In this document: positions 12,233-55,428 of the stretch, piece by piece
Position numbering within the stretch: the stretch's first letter is position 1
Layout: each line of letters begins with the position of its first letter
Source of the DNA: Kiritimatiellia bacterium
GTDB lineage: Bacteria; Verrucomicrobiota; Kiritimatiellia; RFP12; UBA1067
Assembly: GCA_017450695.1 (NCBI GenBank)
Contig: JAFSTA010000254.1
Span: forward strand, 272-64,271
Direction of reading: 5' to 3'
Length of the DNA: 64,000 nucleotides
Translations under genes and position numbers: made by a program
The notes under the pieces: generated by a model
What the model was told of the DNA's origin: nothing
The model's input: only the letters and a program-made list of their open reading frames with translations
The model's database searches: none

Positions 12233-12398
12233 CTGTTGGACACTTTGAAATGAAGCATGGCGGTTTGGAATTTTCAGACTTTCATCATTTGGGTGAATCC
12301 GTTTTCTGTCGTAATGTGTGAGCGAGGGATCGAAAAGCCATGTTTTCGGCACTTTCTCTGCGTGCTCTGCGACTCTGCGTGAGAACCCAAACGAGGAA
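12233..12398 (+). repeat. Dispersed ~170-bp modular repeat family D, copy 1 (CTGTTGGACAMTTTGAAA...TTTGGGTGAATCCGTTTTCTGTCGTAA...TTCTCTGCGT...GCGACTCTGCG...AACCCAAACGAGG)
   Basis: Inverted copy at 51244-51470 with an extra ~80-bp CACGGA-rich insert. Partial copy at 30972-31017. Confidence 0.85.
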
Positions 12399-30971: not shown

Positions 30972-31017
30972 CCGTTGGACAATTTGAAAACCACGGAGCA
31001 CACGGAACACACGGAAT
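30972..31017 (+). repeat. Partial copy of repeat family D (TTGGACAATTTGAAAACCACGGAGCACACGGAACACACGGAAT)
   Basis: Matches the 5' module and CACGGA-rich insert of the 51244-51470 copy. Confidence 0.75.
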
Positions 31018-39547: not shown

Positions 39548-39648
39548 GCAAACCAACGTTCCTTTCGGTACCGGGAGTTTGGGAGACTTGGAGAAGAGAG
39601 TCCCCTATCTCTGAAACTCCGAGACTCCCCGTAGCGAAAGCAATTTCC
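39548..39648 (-). repeat. Repeat family A, copy 3 (inverted orientation)
   Basis: Its reverse complement aligns with 77-168 and 54176-54265. Confidence 0.85.
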
Positions 39649-40065
39649 GCCTTGCCTAAGCGATCGCCGAGGACGGCGCCCCTCCGTAGGATTGCCTTAC
39701 GCAGAGAACGGGAGGGTCGCGCCCCGTCGCGACGATAATACGGAACACGACTTGCTTACGCGGACGCGACGGGGCGCGTCTCCCACCGCAGGATTGCCTC
39801 GGACAGAGAACGTGTGGTGACAACCGACGACCGTTTGCGCAGAGGGGGTTTGCAAGGACGACAACTGGGACAACGGATGGACAACTTGCGGGCGGTCGTC
39901 GCGCAACCGCATGACGATTCCCATCCGGCTCGCGGTTGCGAGCCGTACCGATTCAAGTTGTTCTCGATGTTGTCCCTGTTGTTTCCCAATCCCCTGCGTA
40001 TGGAAAAGCCCTTGTTCCTTTGTGTTCTTTGTGCTTAAGCCAAATCCCAACAAAGGAATTGATCC

Positions 40066-40821: not shown

Positions 40822-43800
40822 TCACCAGACGGCGGGGGCGGGACAATTTGTCAGCAGACGGATTGACATCGCACGCTGCTCGTCATACTCCAGCTGCCAC
40901 TTGAAGAATGCCGAGTCTTTCCATTCGCGGAGGTGCGGGATACCGTCCGCGAACGGATAGTTGTCGATCAGGATGCGGCAGGCATGGTTCGAGTCCCACG
41001 AGTTTTCATCGAATGTGTACTGCCGCGCGGTAATCCATTCCGGATCGGTCAGCTTGTGCTTCCCCTTGATCTTGAAGGTCGGGCGATCCAGATCGATATT
41101 CCCGCGAAGGGTCGTGACATTCTGCGGTTCACCGTTGTTGCAGGCGAGCGACATCCAGGCGGTGAGGAAGATGTTTGTGCCGCCCATCGCGCGCTCGACC
41201 TTTCCGGTGAATCCGCCGTCGAACACGTAGCGGTTGGTCGGATCGCAGTTCAGCCAGTACAGCTCCATGAAGGAGAGCGGACGGTTCTCCGGTACGCACC
41301 AACTGTCATACCGGATCTGGTTGTCCGGGAAGCTCATCAACCAAGAGAGTGCGGTCGGCGGCAGGCCGTAGGTGTTCAACGTCGGGTCTCGCGAGATATA
41401 CGCTGTGATATCGGTCGTTTCCTGCACATTGGTGATGACCAGCGTGAAATTGGTCGTAGAGTTCTGCGTAAAGTATGCGCTGTTCAACAGGTTCTCGCTC
41501 GTACTGGAATCCGGATGGACGGCAACCAGCGAGGTGATACGATACCAGTTGCGCGTATCGTACACGACATTGGTCGCGCCGGTCCCCTTGGGCAGTTTGA
41601 AGGAGAGTTTCCTCGTCGTGCCGTTCTGAAGCCCGTAATCGGACGGCGTGATGACGGCAGTGACAACCACATTGGAGAGCCCGGCGTAGATCTCGGGGAC
41701 CTGCGGCAGAATCTGCATGAGGTTCGGCGCACCGGGGGTCCAGACCTTGGTCCCGACGGGGAACGACCTCTGTTTCTCGATATAGCCGGACTCGTTCCCC
41801 TCCAGCAACAGGGTACACCAGTCACGGGTAGTGGAATCCACGCAGTTGGTTACGCTGAGCGAGGCGTTCGGGATATCCGCACCTACGTACACGAGCTTGC
41901 CTTCGGGATCCAGCGCGGCAAAATCGGCACCGTCCAAGTCCGAATACGCATACGCTATGGTATCCTCATACATCCCCAACGGGCGCTTGATGCGGATACC
42001 GCCGTAATCGCCGTTTAGGTACGTTAGAAATCCCGCGATATACATATCCACGTTCGTCAACGAAGGAGTGTATTCTTGCTCTTGGCTAGCGACTAAGAAG
42101 AAGGCATAACCATTGGTGACCTCAGCCTTTCCTTCCATCGCAATATCCAGAGCTTTCGTTATAGAATTGTCACTCTCAATGTTGATACTCCAATTCCGCA
42201 GATCCATGTCTGCCGGAATCGCCAGCTCGACGTACGGGTTGAGACACTCCTTTGCGTTACCGGAGGAGTTTCTGTTCTCATAGGAGTTGATCTCGTTCAC
42301 GAAAACCGTACCCAACGGAATACGGTACACGATGAAGTAGGGCGACCAACCGTCGTACCTCTCGTTCAGGTCGATCGGATAGTACCATTCCGGATTCTTG
42401 AAGGAGTCCCTCTTCTGCACCTGGAAGTAGGAATTGACATTCTGCGCGTCAGAGTAAAGCGCCCAGACGCAGAACTGGACAACCGCATTCTCCTCCTGGA
42501 ACGGGATATCGTCCTCGATCGACGTACGGAAAAGCTGCGGATCATTCTCATCGGGATACATCTGCAGGGTAGTCCCCTGGTGGGGCCGCCAGTTGTTTCG
42601 ATTCGGTTCACCCCAAAGATTCGCGATACCCCACGTGTTCGTTCCCACGTGGTAGCTAACGAAAACATGGATGTTCGAGGGGGACATCCGGAGGTTTGTC
42701 AGGCGTGCCTCAATGCCGATCAGGTCCGAGACAAGCGGCTGTTCGCACACCTCATACTCACCTTTGTTGTTGTGGCGCAAGAGCTTCACGTCATTGATGT
42801 CAAACCCCGGATAGATCGGCTCGCAAACCGCCACATTCTCCAGGCAGACGCGCGGTTTGTCACCGGCCTTGCTCATCTGGAAGCGGATGGCCTTGTACTT
42901 CTCGCCATCGAAGTCTTCCAATTCGGAGGAAGTCTTGGAATACACCGTGTAGTACTGGGAATTCACATTCGTAATCGTCAGGGATTCGAGATAGACCCAG
43001 TTTGTCGTATCCGTATTCCAATCCTCATCCGTCATGCCATAGACGTCAATCGATGTATCCGCGTCGGTCGCGTTGTACTTGCGGGCCTCCAGCCGAACCT
43101 CGCCGACGCCGTTCATCAGCAACGGCGTCTTCAAGTACGGGTCAAAGACATCCATCGGTGAGATGTCCGCATTGACATCCTTCGTCGTCGAATTGTTGAG
43201 AAAGAGCATCTTGCTCTCGTCGAGAGCGATACGGGCGCGGTCTGTGTCCGTAGCCAATCCGTTATAGGTCTTCCACGAGGTGTTCGAGGGCTGCGGATAA
43301 TCCCAAGCCACCATGTTGTCGAACCGAACAATTCCTTTGGCGTTCCCGTACTGCTCGTTTACGATGCGGAAGTAGCCGCCATTCGTATTGCCAAGATAGG
43401 CGGTGACGTGCTTCCACCCGGTCGCGCTGGTTTCCGTCCAACTGGTCACGTCATGCCATGTCGAACCGTATAGCGACTTCTCCTGCACAGTCAGGTGGGT
43501 CGGGGCGGAAGAGACCTTGTAATCGAACGAAAGCTGCCCGTGACCGTTCTCCAGCGCGGGAGTCTGGATATACTGCTCCGAGGAACTCTTCGATCGAGAG
43601 GTATCCAGTTCCACGACCGTACCACGTGTGCCACTTTCAGTCGTCACCCAGCCTTCATACATCGACCACTCGTCATTACCGCCCGTCTGCGTCTTACCAT
43701 GCCAACTGCGGGAGACAATCTCATCGATCGCGATGTCCGCAGAACCGCCGTTCTGGAGTTTCACATGGTAGGACGTCGCCGTTTCGGGCGCGTATGTGAA

Positions 43801-46800
43801 CGACTGGTACGAATAACTGTTCACCGTAAACGTTTGCGCCAACTCCCACCCGTGATCCGCAGGGTCAGTCCTGTACTCATAATTGTTGACCGGCTGCACA
43901 TAGAGGTAAAGGGACTGCGAAGGAAGCAGGGAAGTAATCGTACCGTTGGCAATGTTGTACCGGGAGGACGGCCAGCGCCAGTTGTAGTTCGCGCTGGCGG
44001 AATCGGCAATCAAACTCGTGTAAGATCCAATAACCGGACCTCCAGTAACTGGACCTTGGCTCCATGAACTGATACGGGCAACGCGAAGCTGACTGAAACT
44101 CCCCGTACAATTCGAGATCAACACTCCCGCGTTGCCACAGGTCAATTTTTGGCTAGTCGCGTCCTCTATAGAAAGCGAATCTGTACCGAACGCTCCCCGA
44201 ATGTACACGCTTCCGGTATTATTGTTGTTGTCTCGACTCGTAGTAAACAGGTTCAGTACCAACGATCGACTAGAAACAAGATCCTTCAACGTCCCGCTCA
44301 ATACACCGCTCTCCGCGAGCTTAGTCGGTGTCCCGTTATTCCAGCGATACAAAGCAAACAGGCATTGCTTTGTTGTCAGAGCTGCGGTGGCTGATGCAGG
44401 ACGTTTTTGCGTCACGCGAAGCTCATAGAAGGAGTTGTCGCTCGTGATGTATCCGACCAGCGAGACGGAAAACTCTTCAGGCGCCATTTGCGTAATATTT
44501 ATTTTGGCGGTAAAACTATAGCTTTCCGGAACCGTTCCACTCGTGGTCGGCATAGACGAACCGATATACTGCACCATCTGCTCCGGGGTGAGCGGCGTGT
44601 TGACGCGCGCCTTGAATGAGATGGACTTCAACCCGTCCATGAGCGAGTCTTTGGCAGTCGTGAGATACCCGAAACTGGTGATCCCGTTGGTATTCATCGA
44701 GGAGGTCAGCATATCCCCGCCGATCAGCCGCACCGCAACGTTCCCGAAACTGTCACGCGACGATGTGCTGGCAGTCCAGTATGGGTTGTTGGCTTCATCC
44801 GCCCGTTCCAGTTCCGATGCGTAAGCCGCGTTGTACGCCTTGATGAGATCTTCCGTCTCGAATTCCAACCGATACGTGTTCGGCATCACGGCAGGGAAAC
44901 GGAAATAGGCGTTGTGCAGATCGTCCTCGCTCTTGTTCCAGCTGTCGAAGTTTTCTTTAAACGCAATCGCATCCGGCTGCGCGTAGGTCGTGGCGAAGAA
45001 GTTCGTGTACGACTGCCAATCGTTGAAGTTCTGGTACTCGGCACGGCAGACCTTGTATTCCATCAAGTTCAGATCCAGCGTGACCGACGCATACGCACTC
45101 CCCGTCACGTTAAATTTCATCCGATGCTCGTGATCCGTCTCCTGACAGGAACCACCGGTTGGCGCAAAGGCCGTGACACTGGTTGACTGTGCCAGTTCCG
45201 CCCAGCACCGATAGGTCGTGTCCAGCCGGTGATCCAAGAAACCGTCCGCATTCGTTACGGCGACATAGGTGTTGGTCGTGAACATCCAACACTCGAACGT
45301 ACCGTCATCCAACGTTCGCAGCGGAAGGTATGCACGCCAGATATTGTCGCCTATCAGCTCCATGTGGAACGACTCGTCCTGAATGGTCGTGCCGATCTGC
45401 ATATCCCCGATGTCCGAGGCGTAACGCCGCAACCGCACGAAGAACTCACGTTCCCCGCCCTGCTCCGTGTTCCGCAAAATCCGAGGAGAGAGCGATTCGG
45501 AATGCTCGCTCGAATTCGGCCAGTAGGTATAACCGAGTCCCGTATAATCGACCGGAATGAAGCGGAAACCGTCGAAGTTGCAGACGAAATAGTACTCCAA
45601 ATCGCCCACCCGCTCCTGTGCGGGAATCGCCCCCGTGTACAGCTCTCCGTTCCCCGCACCGTCATCTCCTTCCGCGCCCGGCACATATTCCATCGTGCTA
45701 GCTGTCCACGCGCCAATCGACTGATCCAGATAGCGCCAGCGATAGACCACCTGCACGTTGCGATCTTCCCACGCAGTCGGCACGTTCGTATCGACATTGC
45801 TCACGCGGCAACGAATCGACAACCTTTGCCCCGGTGTTGGATACCCAGGATCGAACGACAGGGGTTCCTGCTCAATCTTTACGTCGGAGGGAGGAGACGA
45901 CACCTGAATGTTATCGATTGCCAGAAAGTAGGCATCTGGATAGGAAACTAGTCCGTTGGGAATTTCATTCGTTGTCACGACAGAGTTTCGGCGAATCCTG
46001 AATCGAATTGGATCATAAAAATTGAGCGTCTGCTGGAAGCGGACGAACCCCTCCGAATTTTGGATTGTATTCTCTTCTGCCGCTAGATTCGTAGAACAGA
46101 CTGCGACCCAGTTATTCGAGAAGATGTGCGCAATTTCTCCGTTCTCGTTCGAGACAACCAGCTCGTCGAAATCGGAAACAAAGTTGGTGTACACATTCCG
46201 CGTCACCCAGTCGAACATATTCGTGGCAATCTCCAGCGAGATTTCACCGGGTTGGTTCACATTGACCGCATCGAAATAAATTGTACCAATTCCATCGGGA
46301 TAGAACGGAGACTCGATGCGGGCGTCAAATGTGTTATTCAAGTTCGCCTGATAATTTGTTATACCAGACATATACTCCTGTGGCCCTATGTAATTTGAGT
46401 AGGGTCCGCGCATCCAAGTACTCGATCCTGTCTTACCTTCAATCACTTTCCAACTAGCAACATGTACATGGTTCGACCCATCCAGCAAATAACGGCGGTA
46501 GTAACTTGCGTTACGGCTGGAAGTAGAAACGTCATTTGGTGCCCCCCCCTCGTGTTCCCATTGTCCTCCAAGATAATCCCCATAATCCGTCCCATCCGTC
46601 CACTTATTGAACAGCATCAACCGGTTTGTATCCAGTTCCGAAGTGCTTTTCGGAATCGACCACTTCGAAACATCCTTGCTGTTCACGGCGGACTGCACGG
46701 TCAGGACGGGTTCACCGCCATCCGTCCAGTAGGTGACTCCCGTTTGCGTATAATCGGTGGGGAAATACCTGCCGCCCGTCACGGTGCATTCGTAGTAGTA

Positions 46801-47862
46801 ATCTACAGCAACGGTTTCCGTCGGGAACTCGATCACTCCCTCGTAGGTCTCGTTGTTTCCCAAACCGTCTCCCGTGCCGGGGCTGTACGACAGCAGTTTG
46901 GAAGAGTAGGCGGATGCCGTAGATGGCTTGTAATAAATCCGGACCGCACGCATCTCGTGCGTGGAATAGAGTAACGCAAGTGCGGAAGAGTCGAAATCGG
47001 CGTTCGAGACGCGGCAACCGACATTCGCTTGCGACAGCACCCCGGGCACCTTGGAGATTTCGCCTCCCTGTACCCGTACGCTATGGCGGGGATAAGAGAC
47101 ACAGATATTATCGACCGCAAGAAAGGCGACGTCCGTGTATGATTCCGTCACCGTTGCATCGACTGTCGCGCGGACAACGCGAAAACAGACCGGCTGGAAC
47201 AAGTCCAATGTTTTTTGGTATTGTACACCGCCTTCATAGACTCCCGGCGAAATATCCAACGTTACTGTGTCGATCGTGAACCAATTGTATGCCCACGTGG
47301 AAGACTCTTGCGCCAGCAGCGGTCCATACGTTCCACTAATCGTATTGTGGACCATATTTGTGGCAATCTGGATCGAGAGCGTACCGGAAGCGGTCGAGTT
47401 GTTCACCGCGTCAAAGTAGATCGTGCCAATGCCCTCGAAATAGACAGGCGATTCGATCCTTGCCCCAAGGGTATTGTGCAAGCTCGCCTGATAATTCGTA
47501 AAATTGCCCGACGAATAGGAATAAATCTGGGGTGCGATATAACTAACTGAATTTGTCGGTCGGAGAAATGAAGACGATCCCACGCTTCCCGAATACACCC
47601 GCCATCCTGACGTGTGAAAATGGTTAGACCCATCGAGCAAATAGCGACGGTAATAGGAATTTTGTCGGCTGGATGTGGAAACTCCGTTCGGCGCCCCGCC
47701 TTCGTGCGTCCATCCACCGTAGTAGTCGCCGTAATCCTGGCCGTCCGTCCAGCGGTTGAACAGCATCCGGCGCTCGATCGGCAGGGAAATAGCGGTATCC
47801 GCCTGTGCGGAGAACACTCCCGCCAAAGCGAAGAGGAGTAGGAAATAGCACTTTCTCTTCAT
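40822..47862 (-). CDS. Giant (2346 aa) secreted protein with an internally duplicated N-terminal ~390-aa module and a C-terminal lamin-tail-domain-like region. Function unknown
   Basis: Signal peptide MKRKCYFLLLFALAGVFSAQA. Module RMLFNRWTDG...YYRRYLLDGSNH recurs at about aa 30 and aa 410. LTD-like VFVNEINSY...NPYVELAIPADMDLRNWSI. Confidence 0.7.
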   Translation of the reverse strand: MKRKCYFLLLFALAGVFSAQADTAISLPIERRMLFNRWTDGQDYGDYYGGWTHEGGAPNGVSTSSRQNSYYRRYLLDGSNHFHTSGWRVYSGSVGSSSFLRPTNSVSYIAPQIYSYSSGNFTNYQASLHNTLGARIESPVYFEGIGTIYFDAVNNSTASGTLSIQIATNMVHNTISGTYGPLLAQESSTWAYNWFTIDTVTLDISPGVYEGGVQYQKTLDLFQPVCFRVVRATVDATVTESYTDVAFLAVDNICVSYPRHSVRVQGGEISKVPGVLSQANVGCRVSNADFDSSALALLYSTHEMRAVRIYYKPSTASAYSSKLLSYSPGTGDGLGNNETYEGVIEFPTETVAVDYYYECTVTGGRYFPTDYTQTGVTYWTDGGEPVLTVQSAVNSKDVSKWSIPKSTSELDTNRLMLFNKWTDGTDYGDYLGGQWEHEGGAPNDVSTSSRNASYYRRYLLDGSNHVHVASWKVIEGKTGSSTWMRGPYSNYIGPQEYMSGITNYQANLNNTFDARIESPFYPDGIGTIYFDAVNVNQPGEISLEIATNMFDWVTRNVYTNFVSDFDELVVSNENGEIAHIFSNNWVAVCSTNLAAEENTIQNSEGFVRFQQTLNFYDPIRFRIRRNSVVTTNEIPNGLVSYPDAYFLAIDNIQVSSPPSDVKIEQEPLSFDPGYPTPGQRLSIRCRVSNVDTNVPTAWEDRNVQVVYRWRYLDQSIGAWTASTMEYVPGAEGDDGAGNGELYTGAIPAQERVGDLEYYFVCNFDGFRFIPVDYTGLGYTYWPNSSEHSESLSPRILRNTEQGGEREFFVRLRRYASDIGDMQIGTTIQDESFHMELIGDNIWRAYLPLRTLDDGTFECWMFTTNTYVAVTNADGFLDHRLDTTYRCWAELAQSTSVTAFAPTGGSCQETDHEHRMKFNVTGSAYASVTLDLNLMEYKVCRAEYQNFNDWQSYTNFFATTYAQPDAIAFKENFDSWNKSEDDLHNAYFRFPAVMPNTYRLEFETEDLIKAYNAAYASELERADEANNPYWTASTSSRDSFGNVAVRLIGGDMLTSSMNTNGITSFGYLTTAKDSLMDGLKSISFKARVNTPLTPEQMVQYIGSSMPTTSGTVPESYSFTAKINITQMAPEEFSVSLVGYITSDNSFYELRVTQKRPASATAALTTKQCLFALYRWNNGTPTKLAESGVLSGTLKDLVSSRSLVLNLFTTSRDNNNNTGSVYIRGAFGTDSLSIEDATSQKLTCGNAGVLISNCTGSFSQLRVARISSWSQGPVTGGPVIGSYTSLIADSASANYNWRWPSSRYNIANGTITSLLPSQSLYLYVQPVNNYEYRTDPADHGWELAQTFTVNSYSYQSFTYAPETATSYHVKLQNGGSADIAIDEIVSRSWHGKTQTGGNDEWSMYEGWVTTESGTRGTVVELDTSRSKSSSEQYIQTPALENGHGQLSFDYKVSSAPTHLTVQEKSLYGSTWHDVTSWTETSATGWKHVTAYLGNTNGGYFRIVNEQYGNAKGIVRFDNMVAWDYPQPSNTSWKTYNGLATDTDRARIALDESKMLFLNNSTTKDVNADISPMDVFDPYLKTPLLMNGVGEVRLEARKYNATDADTSIDVYGMTDEDWNTDTTNWVYLESLTITNVNSQYYTVYSKTSSELEDFDGEKYKAIRFQMSKAGDKPRVCLENVAVCEPIYPGFDINDVKLLRHNNKGEYEVCEQPLVSDLIGIEARLTNLRMSPSNIHVFVSYHVGTNTWGIANLWGEPNRNNWRPHQGTTLQMYPDENDPQLFRTSIEDDIPFQEENAVVQFCVWALYSDAQNVNSYFQVQKRDSFKNPEWYYPIDLNERYDGWSPYFIVYRIPLGTVFVNEINSYENRNSSGNAKECLNPYVELAIPADMDLRNWSINIESDNSITKALDIAMEGKAEVTNGYAFFLVASQEQEYTPSLTNVDMYIAGFLTYLNGDYGGIRIKRPLGMYEDTIAYAYSDLDGADFAALDPEGKLVYVGADIPNASLSVTNCVDSTTRDWCTLLLEGNESGYIEKQRSFPVGTKVWTPGAPNLMQILPQVPEIYAGLSNVVVTAVITPSDYGLQNGTTRKLSFKLPKGTGATNVVYDTRNWYRITSLVAVHPDSSTSENLLNSAYFTQNSTTNFTLVITNVQETTDITAYISRDPTLNTYGLPPTALSWLMSFPDNQIRYDSWCVPENRPLSFMELYWLNCDPTNRYVFDGGFTGKVERAMGGTNIFLTAWMSLACNNGEPQNVTTLRGNIDLDRPTFKIKGKHKLTDPEWITARQYTFDENSWDSNHACRILIDNYPFADGIPHLREWKDSAFFKWQLEYDEQRAMSIRLLTNCPAPAVW

Positions 47863-49170: not shown

Positions 49171-49449
49171 CTTCTTCTCAGCCTTTCAGTCTCTCAGCTG
49201 GCGCGAAGCGCCTTACCCACTAACCGATAGGCAAGGCAGGGATTTGGAAACAACGGAAACAACATCCAGAACAACTTGAATCGGGACGGCCCGCAACCGC
49301 GAGCCGGATGAAAACCGTCGCGCGTTGTCGATCCGTTGTTTCAGTTGTTGCCCTTCCTCCTCTCGGATGTTCTCCGCGATCAGCGAATGATTCGGGGAAG
49401 CGGTACTCCTGCCGCTTCATTCTGTTCCGTTTCCATGCAACAGCGACCC

Positions 49450-49550
49450 GAGTGTCGCACCCACGATTTGGCGGTATGTTCCACCAACTCGACCTCTGTG
49501 CCCTCAAGGCTGCGGAGTGTCGCACCCCCGATTTGGCGGTATGTTCCACC
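49450..49550 (+). repeat. Two 36-bp direct repeats (GAGTGTCGCACCCMCGATTTGGCGGTATGTTCCACC) separated by a 29-bp unique spacer
   Basis: 35 of 36 positions identical. Period 65 bp. Only two units, and no cas genes nearby. Confidence 0.7.
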
Positions 49551-51114: not shown

Positions 51115-51243
51115 GACTTCACCTCATTTCGCTCATTTCATGGGCATTATACCAAAATAACCAGCCAGATGCGAGTGCAAGATCAAGCCTTGCCTAGAAG
51201 TGGGTGGGCCGGGTAAGCGTGTTAAGCCGGGTAGGCGTGCCAA

Positions 51244-51470
51244 CCTCGTTTGGGTTTTCCCGCAGAGTCGCAAAATACGCAGAGAAAGTGCTTTCACCCG
51301 CACACACGTTACGACAGAAAACGGATTCACCCAAATGGTGAAAGCCTGTAAAATTCCAAAGCGCCATGATTCACCACGGAATACACGAAACTCACGAAAA
51401 CGACGTTCCAAGAAACGGATGATTTTCCGTGTAATCCGTGTGTTCCGTGGTTTTTCAAATTGTCCAACAG
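51244..51470 (-). repeat. Repeat family D, copy 2 (inverted, with ~80-bp CACGGA-rich hairpin insert), preceded by a CCGGGTAAGCGTG tandem module at 51218-51243
   Basis: Its reverse complement aligns with 12233-12398. Confidence 0.85.
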
Positions 51471-51603
51471 CGGAATTTAGGTTCAACGTTTCCAATCGGA
51501 GGTTCATTCCTACTGGATTCTTGGAACATTCTCTGCGTTCTCTGCCTCTTGCGCCTCTGCGTGAGACATTCAACCGCGGTTATTAGGTTTAACCCTCCCT
51601 ACG

Positions 51604-51652
51604 CCCCTTCGATGAGGGTGCCGAGGTTGGAGAACCACTTGAGGGACGGGGC
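51604..51652 (-). repeat. Remnant 3' end of a TetR-family gene (encodes ...NAPSLKWFSNLGTLIEGA*) directly after the AAA ATPase stop. Direct repeat partner of 53197-53250
   Basis: Nucleotide and encoded-peptide similarity to the TetR C-terminus at 53191-53250 (PHLEWISNLGILIEGQ*). Confidence 0.7.
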
Positions 51653-51655
51653 GTT

Positions 51656-52999
51656 CTACAGGAACATTGCCATGTAGATTGGCAGATGGCGGATGCCGTC
51701 CTTAACTACCAGATCCTTTGTGTAGAGGATACAGGGGGCATCGAGACGATCCTTGAACTTCTTCACGAACTTGTCCAGCGAAGCGTGATGTTGGTATGCT
51801 CCGCTCTTGACCTCGACGGGGCATATCATATCTCCCTTTCGCAAAAGGAAGTCTATCTCCACCCGCCCCTCGCCGTCGCCACGGTCCGGCCTGGAATAGA
51901 AATAGAGCTCCACGCCGTTTGCCGCAAACGCCTGCGCCACGGCGTTTTCCGCTATCATGCCTTCGTTCACCGACAGCTTGTCAAGCATAAGCGCACGGTA
52001 GAGTTCGTTTTCAGTGTACGGTCTGCTGGCAAACGTCTGCGCTATCAGCAAACCCGTGTCCGACGAGTACACTTTCTGCGTCGCGAAATCCTCGCTCAAG
52101 GCAAGCGCGACGTTCGGATCGGTGGCGTTCCTGGCGATGTTTACGATGTGCGACTCGGAAAGCCACCTGAACGATTTGGCGTATTCCCGCATCCGCGCGT
52201 CCGCATCCACGGCGGACAGCATGTATTTCTTCTCCTTCTTCGACAGCTGACCGGGTATCTGCTCGAAGATGCCGCGAATTTTCGGCGCGTCTATTCCGGC
52301 GTATTTCGATATGTCGTTCCCGTACAGTTTCAGGATGGAGCGCTTGATGCGGTCAACCCTGCCAAAGTCGCACGTCTTGACATATGCGTCCACGGCCTGG
52401 GGCATGCCCCCTACAAGGAGATATTCGCGGAAACGTTTCATTACCGCCTTGTGGATGGCCTCTCCCATGGGCCTCATCTCCACAAACGCCTTGCGGGCGA
52501 AATCCACCGAAATGGAATCGCCAACCGCCCAGCAGAATTCCTCGAAATCCATTGGGAACATTCCGATGGACTCCTCTTCCGATGGTATCGTGATGCCTTT
52601 TACGTTTTTCTTGATGGAAATGAGCGATCCTGTTTCAATGTAGTCGTAGCGCCCGTCGGCGACAAGGTACTTGATCAACTGACGCGCCTGGGGGCATTTC
52701 TGCACTTCGTCGAATACAATCAGGCTCTTGCGCCTCTCCAATCTCCTGCCATACGAGACCATGAGGAGGTTGAAAAGTCCGTCAAGGTCGTCGGGATGGT
52801 TGACAATCGCATCCACAACCCCCTCTTTGGGACGGTTGAAGTCTATGAGAATGGAGGAAGCGTATTCGCGTTTTGCAAACTCTTCGACAATGGAACTTTT
52901 GCCGACGCGACGCGCACCTTCGATTAACAGTGCCGTGCTACCGCACGACACCGCTTTCCATTCCGTCATCTTATCATAGATTTTTCGCTTGAAAAACAT
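51656..52999 (-). CDS. AAA-family ATPase with C-terminal DUF4143 domain
   Basis: Walker A GARRVGKS, Walker B LIVFDEVQ. 447 aa. GC about 50%, well below the flanking DNA. Confidence 0.85.
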   Translation of the reverse strand: MFFKRKIYDKMTEWKAVSCGSTALLIEGARRVGKSSIVEEFAKREYASSILIDFNRPKEGVVDAIVNHPDDLDGLFNLLMVSYGRRLERRKSLIVFDEVQKCPQARQLIKYLVADGRYDYIETGSLISIKKNVKGITIPSEEESIGMFPMDFEEFCWAVGDSISVDFARKAFVEMRPMGEAIHKAVMKRFREYLLVGGMPQAVDAYVKTCDFGRVDRIKRSILKLYGNDISKYAGIDAPKIRGIFEQIPGQLSKKEKKYMLSAVDADARMREYAKSFRWLSESHIVNIARNATDPNVALALSEDFATQKVYSSDTGLLIAQTFASRPYTENELYRALMLDKLSVNEGMIAENAVAQAFAANGVELYFYSRPDRGDGEGRVEIDFLLRKGDMICPVEVKSGAYQHHASLDKFVKKFKDRLDAPCILYTKDLVVKDGIRHLPIYMAMFL

Positions 53000-53190
53000 G
53001 GCATTCCTCGCGTTTCGCGATAGATTATATCATAAGTTATCACGAAAATGCAAGTTGCCAAACATTGTTTTCCCACGAAAACGTCAGTTGCCAGACATAA
53101 CATTCTCACGTTTTTCCTACTGTCATACACCCCCTGAGACAGGGGGTGTGGCGCAAAGCGCCGAGGGGGTATGCGGACGAGACGAGCTCC

Positions 53191-53810
53191 CTATTGCCCT
53201 TCGATGAGGATGCCGAGGTTGGAGATCCACTCGAGGTGCGGGACGGGGCTGATGCAGGGCCCATTCACGGGCTTGCCGGCGACACAGAGAACCGTGTAGA
53301 GGGTCTCGACGAACAGCTCCTGCTCCGAGACGCGGATGTCGAGCGTGCCGTCCTCCCGGGCCTTGCGGATGACGGTGTGGAACTTCTTCGCAAACACATT
53401 CACCGCCTCGTTGAGGGGCGCATCTGCTCGGCGGAGCACTCCACGTGCTTCACGTAGGTGTCGAAGTTGCGGTTGAACTTGAGAAGATCCTTGTGTGAGC
53501 GGTAAAGCTCGATGATGCTGTCGAGGTAGATCTCCATCTCCCCGAGGGCATCGAGCTGCGCGCCGTTCTTCGCGGCGTAGTTCCGCTCCACCTCTTCATG
53601 CATAGTATTCGTGGTGCCAAGCTCGATGACGAGGTCGGGTTTCGTCTTGAAGTAGCGGTAGAGCGTGACGATGCCGAGGACCGCCGCCTCGGCGATTTCC
53701 GTGAGTTTCACCGCCTCGATGGAGCAGGCGGCAAAGAGGCGGAACACCGCCTCCAGCACGCGTTTCCGGCGAACAGCCATCTCGGCCGCATCTTTCTTTG
53801 AATCTCTCAT
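53191..53810 (-). pseudogene. TetR/AcrR-family transcriptional regulator, frameshifted at a C4 homopolymer near 53420
   Basis: N-terminal HTH (LTEIAEAAVLGIVTLYRYF) in ORF 53400-53810. C-terminal ligand domain in ORF 53191-53439. One extra C in GCGCCCCTCAAC would restore a ~205-aa protein. Confidence 0.7.
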
Positions 53811-54175
53811 GGCGTCCGATGTGGTTGTTCGACTATCATATTGTAGTACTTCCCCTGCGCATGTGAAATCGGGAAGTTTTGGTGGCCTCCAACCTCGTCA
53901 TGCGCCCCTTGCGCGGGAGGGGCGTAATTTATTGCGCCTGTGTTGCCGAAAGCCTGAGCTTGAGGAATGGCAACGGCTTGTCGCCTACCAGCACATCCAC
54001 CGTGACGCGGCCGGAATCGACCGCCACGGGGAGCGACACCGGACAGGGTGACTGTGCCGTTGCCGGAAGCGATAGGCGCTTCGCACCAGCTGAGAAGCGG
54101 GGAAACTGAGAAGAAGAAACATGTGCAACGAATGGGAGGGCCGCGCCCCGTCGCGGCCGTTTCGGCGGGGCGGAA

Positions 54176-54265
54176 CTTGCTTTCGCTACGGGGAGTCCCG
54201 GAGTTTCGGAGACAGGGGTACTGTTCTCCCAACCTCCCAAACCCCCAGCACCGAAAGGAACGTTG
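54176..54265 (+). repeat. Repeat family A, copy 2
   Basis: Aligns with 77-168. Confidence 0.85.
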
Positions 54266-54504
54266 ATTTGTTGCCTTGCGGGGCAACAGAACAGAATGAA
54301 GCGAAGCTGAGAAGTAGGGGGAAACTGAAAGGCGGTCGCGACGGGGCGCGACACTCCCGGATAAGCGGGGGAAGCATTCCAGATTTTCCGGGCTTTCCGG
54401 AAATTTTTCCTAGCGTGACAAGTCCCGCGCCCCCTACGGGGACGCGGGTACAAAAATGGGGCGGCGCGGATACCCCGCACCGCCTCAATGCGATTGGCCT
54501 AAAG

Positions 54505-55428
54505 CTAGCTGAAGAGCCAGGTGGAGAGGTAGCGCTCGCCGGTATCCGGAAGAAGCGCGACGATCGTCTTGCCCGCGAACTCCTCGCGCTTGGAAAGTTC
54601 CAGCGCCGCCCACAGAGCCGCACCGGACGAAATACCGATCAGCAACCCTTCCTGTGCCGCCGCCGCACGGGCGGTCGCGCCCGCATTGTCGGCGGAAACC
54701 TGGACCACTTCACTCAGGAGTGTCGTATCGAGCACTTTCGGAACGAAACCCGCGCCGATTCCCTGAATCTTGTGGGGGCCGGGCTGTCCACCGGAAAGGA
54801 CGGGCGAGGTGTCGGGTTCAACGGCGAAGAGCTTGACCTCCGGATTTTTCTCCTTGAGATACTTGCCCGTCCCCGTAATCGTTCCGCCCGTACCGACACC
54901 CGCGACGAACGCCGCAACTTCCCCGTTGGTGTCGCTCCAGACCTCCGGTCCCGTTGTGCGGTAGTGGAAATCGGGATTCGCGGGATTCTCAAACTGCTGC
55001 AAGATGATCGCGCCGGGTGTCGCGTCGCGAAGCTCATTCGCCTTCGCGATCGCCCCTTTCATTCCGGCCGAACCGGGCGTCAACACGATCTCCGCGCCGT
55101 ATGCCGCCGCTAGCTTGCGGCGTTCGATACTCATCGTTTCGGGCATGGTGAGGATCAGATGATACCCCTTCACCGCTGAGACAAGCGCGAGTCCGACACC
55201 CGTGTTGCCGCTCGTCGGCTCGATGATGGTCGCACCGGGTTGGAGGATGCCGTCTTTTTCAGCGGCCTCGACCATCGCGAGCGCAATCCTGTCCTTCACG
55301 CTGCCGCCCGGATTGAAGAACTCGACCTTGGCGAGAACCCGCGCCGCGCCCTGATTGAGTTTCGGAGAGATTTCCACAAGCGGCGTACCGCCGACTTTCT
55401 TGAGGATGTTGGTGTTAATCGTACTCAT
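54505..55428 (-). CDS. cysK: Cysteine synthase A (O-acetylserine sulfhydrylase)
   Basis: PLP-lysine motif NPGGSVKDR and TSGNTG. 307 aa. Confidence 0.95.
   Translation of the reverse strand: MSTINTNILKKVGGTPLVEISPKLNQGAARVLAKVEFFNPGGSVKDRIALAMVEAAEKDGILQPGATIIEPTSGNTGVGLALVSAVKGYHLILTMPETMSIERRKLAAAYGAEIVLTPGSAGMKGAIAKANELRDATPGAIILQQFENPANPDFHYRTTGPEVWSDTNGEVAAFVAGVGTGGTITGTGKYLKEKNPEVKLFAVEPDTSPVLSGGQPGPHKIQGIGAGFVPKVLDTTLLSEVVQVSADNAGATARAAAAQEGLLIGISSGAALWAALELSKREEFAGKTIVALLPDTGERYLSTWLFS

What the first reader, a model, noticed from the sequence alone, without database searches (positions are those of the whole stretch)
51604..53810. Low-GC AAA ATPase (DUF4143) cassette inserted in frame at the 3' end of a tetR gene, flanked by ~50-bp direct repeats derived from TetR C-termini; neighbouring tetR frameshifted
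The last 17 codons of a TetR paralog (..NAPSLKWFSNLGTLIEGA*) follow the AAA ATPase stop codon directly and in the same frame at 51604-51655. An about 85% identical stretch encoding ..PHLEWISNLGILIEGQ* ends the adjacent TetR gene at 53191-53250. The ATPase gene is about 50% GC against about 62% around it. Its upstream leader (53000-53190) holds tandem 28-bp repeats (CACGAAAAYGYMAGTTGCCARACAT) and a perfect ACACCCCCTG-AGA-CAGGGGGTGT hairpin. This looks like horizontally acquired DNA captured by recombination between tetR paralogs, or a cassette that targets tetR 3' ends. The intact-looking TetR is itself frameshifted at a C4 run, a possible phase-variable tract.
Basis: partly seen in the sequence, partly recalled or inferred. 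Interest (0 to 1): 0.55.

Follow-up and report, generated by a model that had tools for sequence, protein, structure and literature searches.

The report
Defence-candidate ATPase cassette with flanking duplication
A compact, self-promoted gene for an ATPase-nuclease (the widespread but untested phage-defence candidate PDC-S01) sits beside a decaying tetR pseudogene between two copies of about 60 bp of local DNA, and similar long duplications of host sequence around about 8% of its relatives hint at an undescribed way of inserting single genes.

Summary
The sequence features are real. A 447-aa AAA_14+DUF4143 ORF (51656-52999, minus strand) lies between two direct repeats (53187-53249 and 51595-51652, about 85% identical). 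Its leader carries phased tandem repeats and a perfect hairpin, and the neighbouring tetR is frameshifted.

- The repeat is not TetR-family sequence. TetR homology stops 7 nt before it, and no other protein in the database carries the peptide.
- ATPase cassettes are not associated with tetR (1 weak hit in 166 loci).
- The frameshift is a lost A in a TAC codon, identical in seven assemblies, so it is not a variable C tract.
- The GC contrast is 53.7% against 59.7%.

The ATPase is PADLOC candidate PDC-S01. It moves as a discrete unit of about 1.45 kb: three repeats phased at 33 bp, a promoter and the ORF up to its stop codon.

Two family-wide signatures emerged:
- Leader repeats with a 32-34-nt period occur upstream of 72% of 165 ATPase ORFs, against 5.7% of other ORFs.
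- Long flanking duplications occur around 12 of 148 ATPase ORFs, against 1 of 287 others. In clear cases they duplicate host genes (guaA, htpG, an epimerase).

The window copy is best read as an old insertion with a target duplication. The mechanism is unknown and no empty site was found.

The parts
51656..52999 (-). PDC-S01-type ATPase-nuclease ORF (447 aa). It has AAA_14 and DUF4143 domains, Walker A GARRVGKSS, Walker B LIVFDEVQ, and a PD-(D/E)xK-like motif EIDFLL...VEVKSG.
   Evidence: Pfam. PADLOC PDC-S01, E 4e-111. Motifs read from the translation. 100% identical to a Kiritimatiellae MAG protein.
53000..53110 (-). Conserved cassette leader. It holds three 33-nt phased repeats (proximal 53041-53073, middle 53074-53106, distal unit degenerate), core AACTTGCATTTTCGTG. 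An extended -10 (TGATATAAT) lies at 53024-53032 and the RBS is GAGGAA.
   Evidence: Repeats. Alignment of 17 subfamily loci. Homology with cassettes in other contexts starts at 53110. Family-wide 32-34-nt periodicity. The promoter is read from the sequence and was not called by the consensus scan.
53111..53186 (-). Spacer of 76 nt between the upstream repeat and the conserved cassette. It holds the perfect hairpin at 53127-53149 and a second small hairpin, GGCGCAAAGCGCC, at 53150-53162. It is not shared with any other cassette copy and its origin is unknown.
53187..53249 (-). Upstream direct repeat (DR1). It now forms the last 19 codons and stop of the tetR pseudogene reading frame, plus 4 nt beyond the stop.
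51595..51652 (-). Downstream direct repeat (DR2). It begins 2 nt after the ATPase stop codon. It is about 85% identical to DR1 with one 6-nt indel.
53257..53810 (-). tetR pseudogene (TetR_N HTH). It has a 1-nt deletion at about 53419 (the A of a TAC codon). An 11-nt indel at 53260/53261 is polymorphic between strains. The native last ~28 codons are missing.
51133..51594 (.). Non-coding stretch at 48% GC between DR2 and the nitroreductase gene. It is built partly from dispersed repeats that also occur at 12251-12396 and 30974-31016. This is context, not part of the cassette.

Best explanation
**What it is**
- The locus holds one copy of a discrete, self-contained gene cassette of about 1.45 kb (window 53110 to 51656).
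- The cassette encodes an AAA+ ATPase fused to a PD-(D/E)xK nuclease-like domain. This is the PADLOC phage-defence candidate PDC-S01.

**How it got there (inferred)**
- The cassette, with 76 nt of extra DNA on its left, was inserted long ago just past the 3' end of a tetR ORF whose native C-terminus had already been replaced.
- The insertion duplicated about 60 bp of the local target. DR1 stayed attached to tetR, and DR2 is the orphan copy after the ATPase stop.
- The two copies have since diverged to about 85% identity.
- tetR is decaying: one frameshift, an 11-nt indel and a lost native 3' end.

**The leader**
- The 33-bp phased repeats are the family's conserved cis element. They overlap its promoter.
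- They are most likely binding sites through which the encoded protein, or an oligomer of it, autoregulates a potentially toxic nuclease. This is inferred.

**Shown and inferred**
- Shown: family identity, cassette boundaries, the repeat anatomy, recurrence of flanking host duplications in relatives, and the tetR lesions.
- Inferred: that the window's repeats arose as a target duplication at insertion, who catalyses insertion, the autoregulatory role of the repeats, and any defence function.
For: **Identity**
- Pfam AAA_14 and DUF4143. PADLOC PDC-S01, E 4e-111.
- The literature describes PDC-S01 as an unvalidated ATPase plus PD-(D/E)XK candidate. It is the most frequent single defence locus in rumen genomes (PMC13356809, PMC12988326).

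**Discrete unit**
- L189 and L190 are 89.4% nt identical over window 53110-51663 only, with unrelated flanks.
- The same edges appear in L090, L188, L001-L003 and L091.
- Alignments show conservation starting at the first repeat and ending at the stop codon.

**Flanking duplications recur**
- 12 of 148 ATPase-type ORFs have them, against 1 of 287 other ORFs (Fisher p = 1.6e-5).
- Inserts are 1350-1870 nt. Repeats are 30-192 nt or longer. The right repeat starts 2-23 nt after the stop in 7 of 13 cases.
- In the clearest cases one copy completes an intact host gene:
  - L143: the guaA 3' end, in the same layout as the window (GMP_synt_C 1-92/92).
  - L020: the htpG 5' end (89 nt, one mismatch).
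  - L043: the epimerase 5' end.
  - L105: the C-terminal domain of a surface protein.

**Age**
- All seven assemblies of this species carry the insert.
- GC3 is almost at host level.

**Leader**
- Tandem repeats with a 32-34-nt period occur upstream of 72% of 165 ATPase ORFs, against 5.7% of 333 others.
Against: - No empty site was found, so the duplication is inferred by analogy with other loci.
- TetR-family homology stops only 7 nt before DR1. The left edge of DR1 is therefore itself a discontinuity, unlike L143 and L020. A simple target duplication does not predict this. It needs an earlier replacement of the tetR 3' end ending almost exactly there, or a more complex single event.
- The DR-bounded segment carries 76 nt that are not part of the conserved cassette.
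- Four of the 12 positive loci have repeats that are microsatellite arrays or leader-like arrays rather than plain host duplications (L078 twice, L039, L052).
- The control ORFs are mostly housekeeping genes. The enrichment may therefore mark recently inserted genes in general, not this family.
- The structure model is poor (pLDDT 59). DNA binding by the protein is untested.
Confidence: 0.55

Rival explanations
1. The cassette was captured by recombination between two tetR paralogs, or it specifically targets tetR 3' ends. DR2 would then be the C-terminal remnant of a second tetR.
For: DR1 is the 3' end of the present tetR reading frame. DR2 reads as a similar peptide in frame after the ATPase stop.
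Against: - The repeat peptide has no similarity to the strongly conserved TetR-family C-terminus.
- No other protein in 5.8 billion carries it.
- No native tetR C-terminus lies elsewhere in the window.
- tetR is absent from 165 of 166 other ATPase loci.
- The codon differences between the copies are all non-synonymous (sequence).
- In strains L087 and L088, DR1 is out of frame with tetR.
Confidence: 0.04
2. The two repeats are copies of a short dispersed genomic repeat, as in the surrounding intergenic DNA. They either happen to flank the cassette or served as substrates for its recombination into this site.
For: - The neighbouring intergenic regions are mosaics of dispersed repeats.
- In L188 and L090 the closest cassette relatives are bracketed by REP-like palindromic elements.
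- This would explain why the left edge of DR1 is a discontinuity.
Against: - There are only two copies in 64 kb, and none in 187 fetched loci outside this species or in viral contigs.
- The unit has no palindromic or hairpin character (fold z about 0) and no terminal inverted repeats.
- Both copies sit exactly at the edges of the inserted block.
Confidence: 0.12
3. Campbell-type or multi-step replicative origin. Either a circular or linear intermediate carrying the spacer, the cassette and a copy of the 60-bp segment from a related donor was joined next to the resident copy. Or a replication fork switched templates several times at the same point. The result is tetR'-T-spacer-cassette-T in one event.
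For: - It accounts for three things: the discontinuity at the left edge of DR1, the extra 76-nt spacer, and the loss of the tetR 3' end.
- The variable repeat lengths in other loci (30-192 nt) fit a ruler-less process better than a transposase.
Against: - Homologous recombination between 85%-identical 60-bp segments would be very inefficient. The longest identical run is 15 nt (sequence).
- No microhomology is visible at the cleanest junctions, for example L020.
- Random fragments would not share the same cassette edges in at least 10 contexts.
Confidence: 0.15
4. An integron-type gene cassette with attC sites, or an integrase-mobilised islet with att repeats.
For: - It is a single ORF bracketed by about 60-nt similar repeats, and the downstream one starts right after the stop codon.
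- GTTAAAC (matching GTTRRRY) follows DR2 (sequence).
Against: - Neither strand of either repeat folds better than shuffles.
- No GTTRRRY follows DR1.
- There is no recombinase in the bounded segment.
- The repeats in other loci are plainly host gene sequence, and the target differs at each locus.
Confidence: 0.02

Closest known systems
PDC-S01 (PADLOC phage-defence candidate; Pfam AAA_14 + DUF4143; COG1373)
   Same: - Full-length match to the PDC-S01 models (E 4e-111).
- Same two Pfam domains, with Walker A/B and PD-(D/E)xK-like motifs present.
- Single-gene locus in a rumen or gut organism, where the family is reported as the most frequent defence-type locus.
   Different: - Nothing in the searchable literature describes its cis elements or how it moves.
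- Found here: a conserved array of 33-bp phased repeats in the leader, defined cassette edges, and long duplications of host sequence around a minority of copies.
- Defence activity itself is unvalidated.
Transposons and IS elements that make target-site duplications
   Same: Discrete unit found in many unrelated sites, and in about 8% of copies flanked by direct duplications of the target.
   Different: - No terminal inverted repeats.
- No recognisable transposase.
- The duplications are 30-192 bp or longer and vary in length, rather than being short and fixed.
- The bounded insert sometimes carries extra non-cassette DNA.
Integrative islands that insert into gene ends and carry a replacement copy (tRNA- or gene-3'-end-targeting integrase elements)
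   Same: After insertion the host gene stays complete because one repeat copy supplies its end (guaA, htpG, epimerase). An orphan fragment lies on the other side.
   Different: - No integrase.
- The target differs at each locus.
- The repeats are local host sequence, not an element-borne att site.
Iteron-regulated initiator genes, and ORC/Cdc6 genes with origin recognition boxes
   Same: An AAA+-type protein gene preceded by 3-4 direct repeats phased at three helical turns and overlapping its own promoter.
   Different: - No small plasmid consists of this gene. In the plasmid collection the closest matches (46-50% identity, 142-317 kb) lie on large records; the smaller plasmids carrying a match (down to 24 kb) hold only distant paralogues at about 27% identity.
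- No evidence of replication function.
- The fold matches to ORC, TnsC, MuB and McrBC are weak and come from a low-confidence model.

Membership tests
PDC-S01 / AAA_14-DUF4143 ATPase | Match to the family's profile models over the full length | tested here: met
   PADLOC PDC-S01 E 4e-111 over residues 3-447. Pfam AAA_14 76.6 bits and DUF4143 81.3 bits, both above their cut-offs.
PDC-S01 / AAA_14-DUF4143 ATPase | P-loop Walker A/B motifs and a C-terminal PD-(D/E)xK motif | tested here: met
   GARRVGKSS, LIVFDEVQ and EIDFLL...VEVKSG in the translation. All lie in invariant columns of the 38-sequence alignment. DUF4143 is listed as a PD-(D/E)XK family in PMC3424549.
PDC-S01 / AAA_14-DUF4143 ATPase | Protection against phage | not testable with these tools
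   The literature states that validation is pending (PMC12988326).
TetR-family regulator (neighbouring gene) | N-terminal TetR_N HTH | tested here: met
   PF00440, 33 bits. 73% identity to homologues.
TetR-family regulator (neighbouring gene) | Intact ORF with the family's C-terminal helix | tested here: not met
   1-nt deletion. The profile alignment stops at residue 189 of about 218. The conserved tail is absent.
Integron gene cassette | Imperfectly palindromic attC sites that fold as hairpins and have R''/R' boxes | tested here: not met
   Fold z-scores range from -0.68 to +0.65 on both strands. GTTRRRY follows DR2 only (sequence).
Integron gene cassette | IntI integrase and attI nearby | not tested
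   Only the ORFs at 49-56 kb were examined, and none is a recombinase.
IS element or transposon | Terminal inverted repeats and a transposase gene | tested here: not met
   The best inverted-repeat scores at insert ends are at chance level in 13 loci. The only ORF is the ATPase.
IS element or transposon | Short target duplication of fixed length | tested here: not met
   Repeats range from 30 to 192 nt and up to about 300 nt.
Diversity-generating retroelement (TR/VR pair) | Reverse transcriptase, with mismatches confined to adenines of one repeat | tested here: not met
   There is no RT ORF. The mismatches between DR1 and DR2 involve all bases (sequence).
Phase-variable homopolymer switch | Tract length varies between strains or reads and restores the frame | tested here: not met
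   The sequence at the site is identical in L085-L089, L186 and L187. The lesion is a lost A, not a change in the C run. Raw reads were not available.

The most novel reading that the evidence does not exclude
PDC-S01 genes are not, or not only, immune genes. They would be autonomous single-gene mobile elements. The encoded AAA+ ATPase-nuclease would bind the 33-bp phased repeats, cut the cassette out at its defined edges, and insert it at opposite-strand nicks 30-200 bp apart. Repair would then duplicate the target and often leave the host gene intact. This would be a new class of transposition, and it would explain why the family is the most abundant 'defence' locus in rumen genomes.
Probability: 0.15. 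Interest if true: 0.85.

Novelty: new variant of a known kind. Interest (0 to 1): 0.55.

Why it matters
PDC-S01 is reported as one of the most common defence-type loci in prokaryotes and the most frequent one in rumen genomes. Its function and its means of spread are both unknown.

This analysis gives it a defined cassette anatomy: 33-bp phased repeats, a promoter, and an ORF ending at the unit's edge. It also shows a recurring insertion scar of long, variable duplications that keep genes such as guaA and htpG intact.

If the scar reflects a dedicated mechanism, there are two readings:
- It is a new way of moving single genes without a classical transposase or integrase.
- The family is a selfish element that has been counted as immunity.

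If it reflects host replication or repair, it is a useful marker of recent single-gene insertions in gut anaerobes. Either way it yields concrete experiments.

Tried and rejected
- **TetR origin of the repeat.** I tried all three frames, DNA alignment to a tetR homologue, a 118-member profile HMM with shuffled-tail controls, and tblastn of native TetR tails against the window. There was no similarity beyond ...GLFLPP.
- **Repeat peptide as the C-terminus of another protein family.** A search of 5.8 billion proteins found only the locus's own ORF. The motif was also absent from the 80 genome loci.
- **attC or hairpin nature of the repeats.** Rejected by folding.
- **DGR-type repeats.** Rejected from the mismatch pattern.
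- **Terminal inverted repeats at insert ends.** None found.
- **A fourth copy of the leader motif hidden in the conserved ORF 3' end.** The PWM scan, which completed only for the window's own copy before the script stopped, gave at most 0.7 bits there against 32 bits in the leader. Synonymous sites also vary across the 17 subfamily loci.
- **Plasmid replicon idea.** No small plasmid consists of this gene; the close matches (46-50% identity) are on 142-317-kb records, and smaller plasmids down to 24 kb carry only distant paralogues. Phage hits are only unannotated virome contigs.
- **Empty site.** Contigs holding the exact nitroreductase or cysK proteins all carry the insert. The TetR homologue contexts are not syntenic.
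- **E. coli complete genomes for an empty-site test.** No DNA match.
- **RNA genes.** Rfam and tRNA scans of 48-56 kb were empty.
- **Structure.** The AlphaFold model is poor (pLDDT 59). Foldseek gave only weak AAA+ and PD-(D/E)xK-type hits. No solved relative was found by sequence.
Full report
**1. What is in the sequence**

The minus strand carries, in order:
- cysK (54505-55428);
- a 690-nt repeat-rich spacer;
- a tetR gene (53810 down to 53191);
- a 447-aa ORF (52999 down to 51656);
- a 460-nt stretch at 48% GC;
- a nitroreductase gene (51114-50545) and a 285-aa ORF.

The 447-aa protein matches Pfam AAA_14 and DUF4143. It is 100% identical to a protein of a Kiritimatiellae metagenome-assembled genome.

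The direct repeat is real. Positions 51595-51653 and 53187-53245 are 59 nt long and 85% identical without gaps. With a 6-nt indel the match extends to 51652 and 53249. There is no third copy in the window. The downstream copy begins 2 nt after the ATPase stop and reads in frame as NAPSLKWFSNLGTLIEGA*.

The hairpin at 53127-53149 is perfect and unique in the window. The leader repeats have a 33-nt period.

GC is 53.7% for the ORF against 59.7% for the window. GC3 is 70.5% against 73-75% in the neighbouring genes.

**2. The tetR gene**

tetR is a pseudogene, and not a phase-variable one. Alignment to a homologous gene shows CGCCCCTACAACGAG in the homologue and CGCCCCT-CAACGAG in the window. The lesion is therefore the lost A of a TAC codon in the conserved RPYNEAV motif, not a change in C-run length.

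Seven independent assemblies carry the same lesion and the same overall arrangement. They come from different samples and are 99.6-99.9% identical to the window. This is not an assembly error.

Strains L087 and L088 carry 11 extra nt (CCTCTTCCTCC) at window 53260/53261. With those 11 nt, TetR homology continues to ...GKPVNGLFLPP, which corresponds to ...GKYAEGLVYPP in the family.

**3. The repeat is not TetR sequence**

- All 118 full-length homologues end with a strongly conserved tail...YPPDGE.DMT.EL.MLK.MI....
- A profile built from them aligns the reconstructed tetR only to residue 189. The peptide encoded by the repeat scores nothing alone; the whole reconstructed tail beat 193 of 200 shuffled tails, but the profile alignment ends at the PP, before the repeat peptide.
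- The native tail is nowhere else in the window.
- A search of 5.8 billion proteins with both repeat peptides returned only this locus's own small ORF.
- The codon differences between the two copies are E/K, I/F, I/T and Q/A. None is purely synonymous.
- In L087 and L088 the upstream copy is out of frame with tetR.

The repeat is therefore non-coding, lineage-specific DNA that now happens to close the tetR frame. TetR homology ends at 53257, only 7 nt before the repeat starts at 53249.

**4. What the ATPase is**

It matches the PADLOC models for PDC-S01 at E 4e-111. The literature describes PDC-S01 as follows:
- a single-gene phage-defence candidate found by 'guilt by embedding';
- an ATPase fused to a PD-(D/E)XK domain;
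- still unvalidated;
- the fourth most common defence-type locus in prokaryotes, and the most frequent single locus in rumen genomes (PMC12988326, PMC13356809).

DUF4143 was classed as a PD-(D/E)XK family of unknown function (PMC3424549). Walker A, Walker B and an EIDF...EVK motif are present and invariant among 38 relatives.

No solved structure is related by sequence. The AlphaFold model is poor (pLDDT 59). Its Foldseek matches (McrBC, ORC, TnsC, MuB, AF1548) are weak, so they count only as consistent with an AAA+ plus nuclease architecture.

**5. The cassette as a unit**

Close relatives (75-89% nt identity) sit in at least 10 unrelated contexts. Homology always starts about 111 nt upstream of the ATG, at the first leader repeat, and ends at the stop codon.

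The nearest copy in another context (L189/L190, 89.4% nt identity) matches window 53110-51663 and nothing else. Two things follow:
- The window's 76-nt hairpin spacer (53111-53186) is not part of the mobile unit.
- Neither are the two repeats.

Only 1 of 166 ATPase loci has even a weak TetR hit, so there is no targeting of tetR.

**6. The leader repeats**

In the subfamily they are three copies of AACTTGCATTTTCGTG at 33-nt spacing. The last copy sits just upstream of an extended -10, TGATATAAT (and the sequence).

The pattern holds across the whole family, though the motif sequence differs between subfamilies. 72% of 165 ATPase-type ORFs have a tandem repeat with a 32-34-nt period in the 200 nt upstream. 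Only 5.7% of 333 other ORFs do.

Three helical turns between sites that overlap the promoter suggest cooperative binding by an oligomer. The simplest reading is autoregulation by the encoded protein. That is an inference.

**7. Flanking duplications elsewhere**

I tested the 600 nt upstream against the 400 nt downstream of every long ORF in 160 loci. 12 of 148 ATPase-type ORFs had a direct repeat at E below 1e-8, against 1 of 287 other ORFs (Fisher p = 1.6e-5).

Four of the 12 are microsatellite or leader-like arrays and are ambiguous (L078 twice, L039, L052). The closest cassette relatives, L188 and L090, which were not among the 12, sit among REP-like elements.

The rest are plain duplications of host sequence around a 1.35-1.87-kb insert that holds only the ATPase gene:

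| Locus | Repeat | Host sequence duplicated |
|---|---|---|
| L020 | 89 nt, one mismatch | Intergenic DNA, RBS and the first 20 nt of htpG, which continues intact after the downstream copy |
| L143 | about 190 nt | Last 84 nt of guaA plus 108 nt downstream. The upstream copy completes the GMP_synt_C domain to its last residue. Same layout as the window. |
| L043 | 60 nt | Start of an epimerase gene |
| L105 | at least 142 nt (about 300 nt with the decayed part) | C-terminal domain of a 952-aa surface protein. This ATPase is in the same subfamily as the window's. |

These cases rest.

The repeats are imperfect (85-99% identical), so they are not k-mer assembly artefacts. Their lengths run from 30 to 192 nt or more. 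The inserts have no terminal inverted repeats. In 7 of 13 cases the right repeat starts 2-23 nt after the stop, and exactly 2 nt after it in both the window and L020.

**8. Reading of the window**

By analogy, DR1 and DR2 are most simply the two copies of a target duplicated when the cassette was inserted. They have since diverged to about 85% identity. Three observations fit an old event:
- All sampled strains carry the insert.
- GC3 is nearly that of the host.
- The nearest cassette elsewhere differs by 10.6%.

One thing does not fit. In L143 and L020 the flank plus repeat is continuous host gene. In the window the left edge of DR1 coincides, within 7 nt, with the point where tetR homology ends. 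That requires one of three things:
- an earlier replacement of the tetR 3' end that ended almost exactly there;
- a multi-switch replicative event that used the same point twice;
- transfer of the repeat, spacer and cassette as one block.

I cannot decide between these without an empty site, and I found none.

**9. Mechanism**

No classical machinery is present. There is no transposase, integrase or reverse transcriptase. There are no attC-like folds, tRNAs or Rfam families.

Variable duplication lengths and blunt-looking junctions argue against a ruler-type transposase. The shared cassette edges in many contexts argue against random fragment capture.

Two candidates remain:
- Host replication or repair, meaning fill-in of opposite-strand nicks or template switching.
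- The element's own ATPase-nuclease. I give this about 15%.

The control set cannot tell whether the scar is specific to this family or marks recently inserted genes in general.

**10. Verdict**

The tetR-paralog, tetR-targeting and phase-variation ideas are rejected.

The object is a member of a known candidate family. It carries previously undescribed family-wide cis features and an unusual insertion scar that deserves a systematic survey.

Noticed in passing
window 53260/53261; L087 2729-2739, L088: An 11-nt indel (CCTCTTCCTCC) inside the tetR pseudogene is polymorphic between otherwise 99.6-99.9% identical strains. The longer allele keeps more TetR homology. The deletion in the window allele happens to put the repeat-encoded tail back in frame.
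   Followed up: partly
window 54169-54270, 39549-39651, 81-166; 51244-51373 and 12251-12396; 49239-49310 and 39922-39993; 49450-49550: Intergenic regions of this genome are mosaics of dispersed 40-130-nt repeats, 85-97% identical and in either orientation. The 48% GC stretch below the ATPase is partly built from them. The family and its mobility are unknown.
   Followed up: partly
L078 913-1076, 2648-2786, 4016-4179: Two different DUF4143-type ATPase paralogues lie in tandem in a Bacteroidales MAG. Each is bracketed by (TGAAACCC)n microsatellite arrays, giving three arrays for two genes. This would fit serial insertion into one array.
   Followed up: partly
L189 about 240-330 and 431-541: The closest cassette relative in another context has a second, different array of three 33-34-nt phased repeats (TCTTGTATTTTGGCGAAAT...) about 110 nt upstream of its own. 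This looks like a leader left behind by another cassette.
   Followed up: no
L039 553-672 and 2082-2201: Leader-type repeats (AAATTGTGAGAATTTGCAGGA) occur on both sides of a single ATPase ORF in direct orientation, with no second ATPase gene after the downstream set.
   Followed up: partly
L147 2885-3000/4360-4473; L170 2925-2978/4329-4382: In these loci the duplicated segment ends 0-22 nt before the ATPase start and includes an RBS. The ORF appears to have been inserted without its own leader, behind a copy of the next gene's 5' UTR.
   Followed up: no
L095-L100, L085 (contig ends inside window 51656-52999): Many independent metagenome contigs of this species break inside the ATPase gene. This suggests near-identical copies elsewhere in the same samples that tangle the assembly graph.
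   Followed up: no
window 52527-52724: A roughly 200-nt stretch of the ATPase gene, beginning at the Walker B region (LIVFDEVQ) and running downstream of it, keeps 70-76% nucleotide identity with homologues from Bacteroidales, Clostridia, Spirochaetes and Methanomassiliicoccales that are only about 48% identical as proteins.
   Followed up: no
window 40822-47862 (minus strand, 2346 aa); L081-L084 4708 onward: In other genomes the homologous intact tetR is followed directly by a roughly 2,100-aa Laminin_G_3 protein gene. The window has a 2,346-aa ORF about 5 kb further down the same strand. The DNA between tetR and that ORF may therefore be a series of insertions. The 2,346-aa ORF was not scanned against Pfam here, the collection's precomputed table lists no Pfam family for it, and no comparison with the Laminin_G_3 protein was made.
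   Followed up: no
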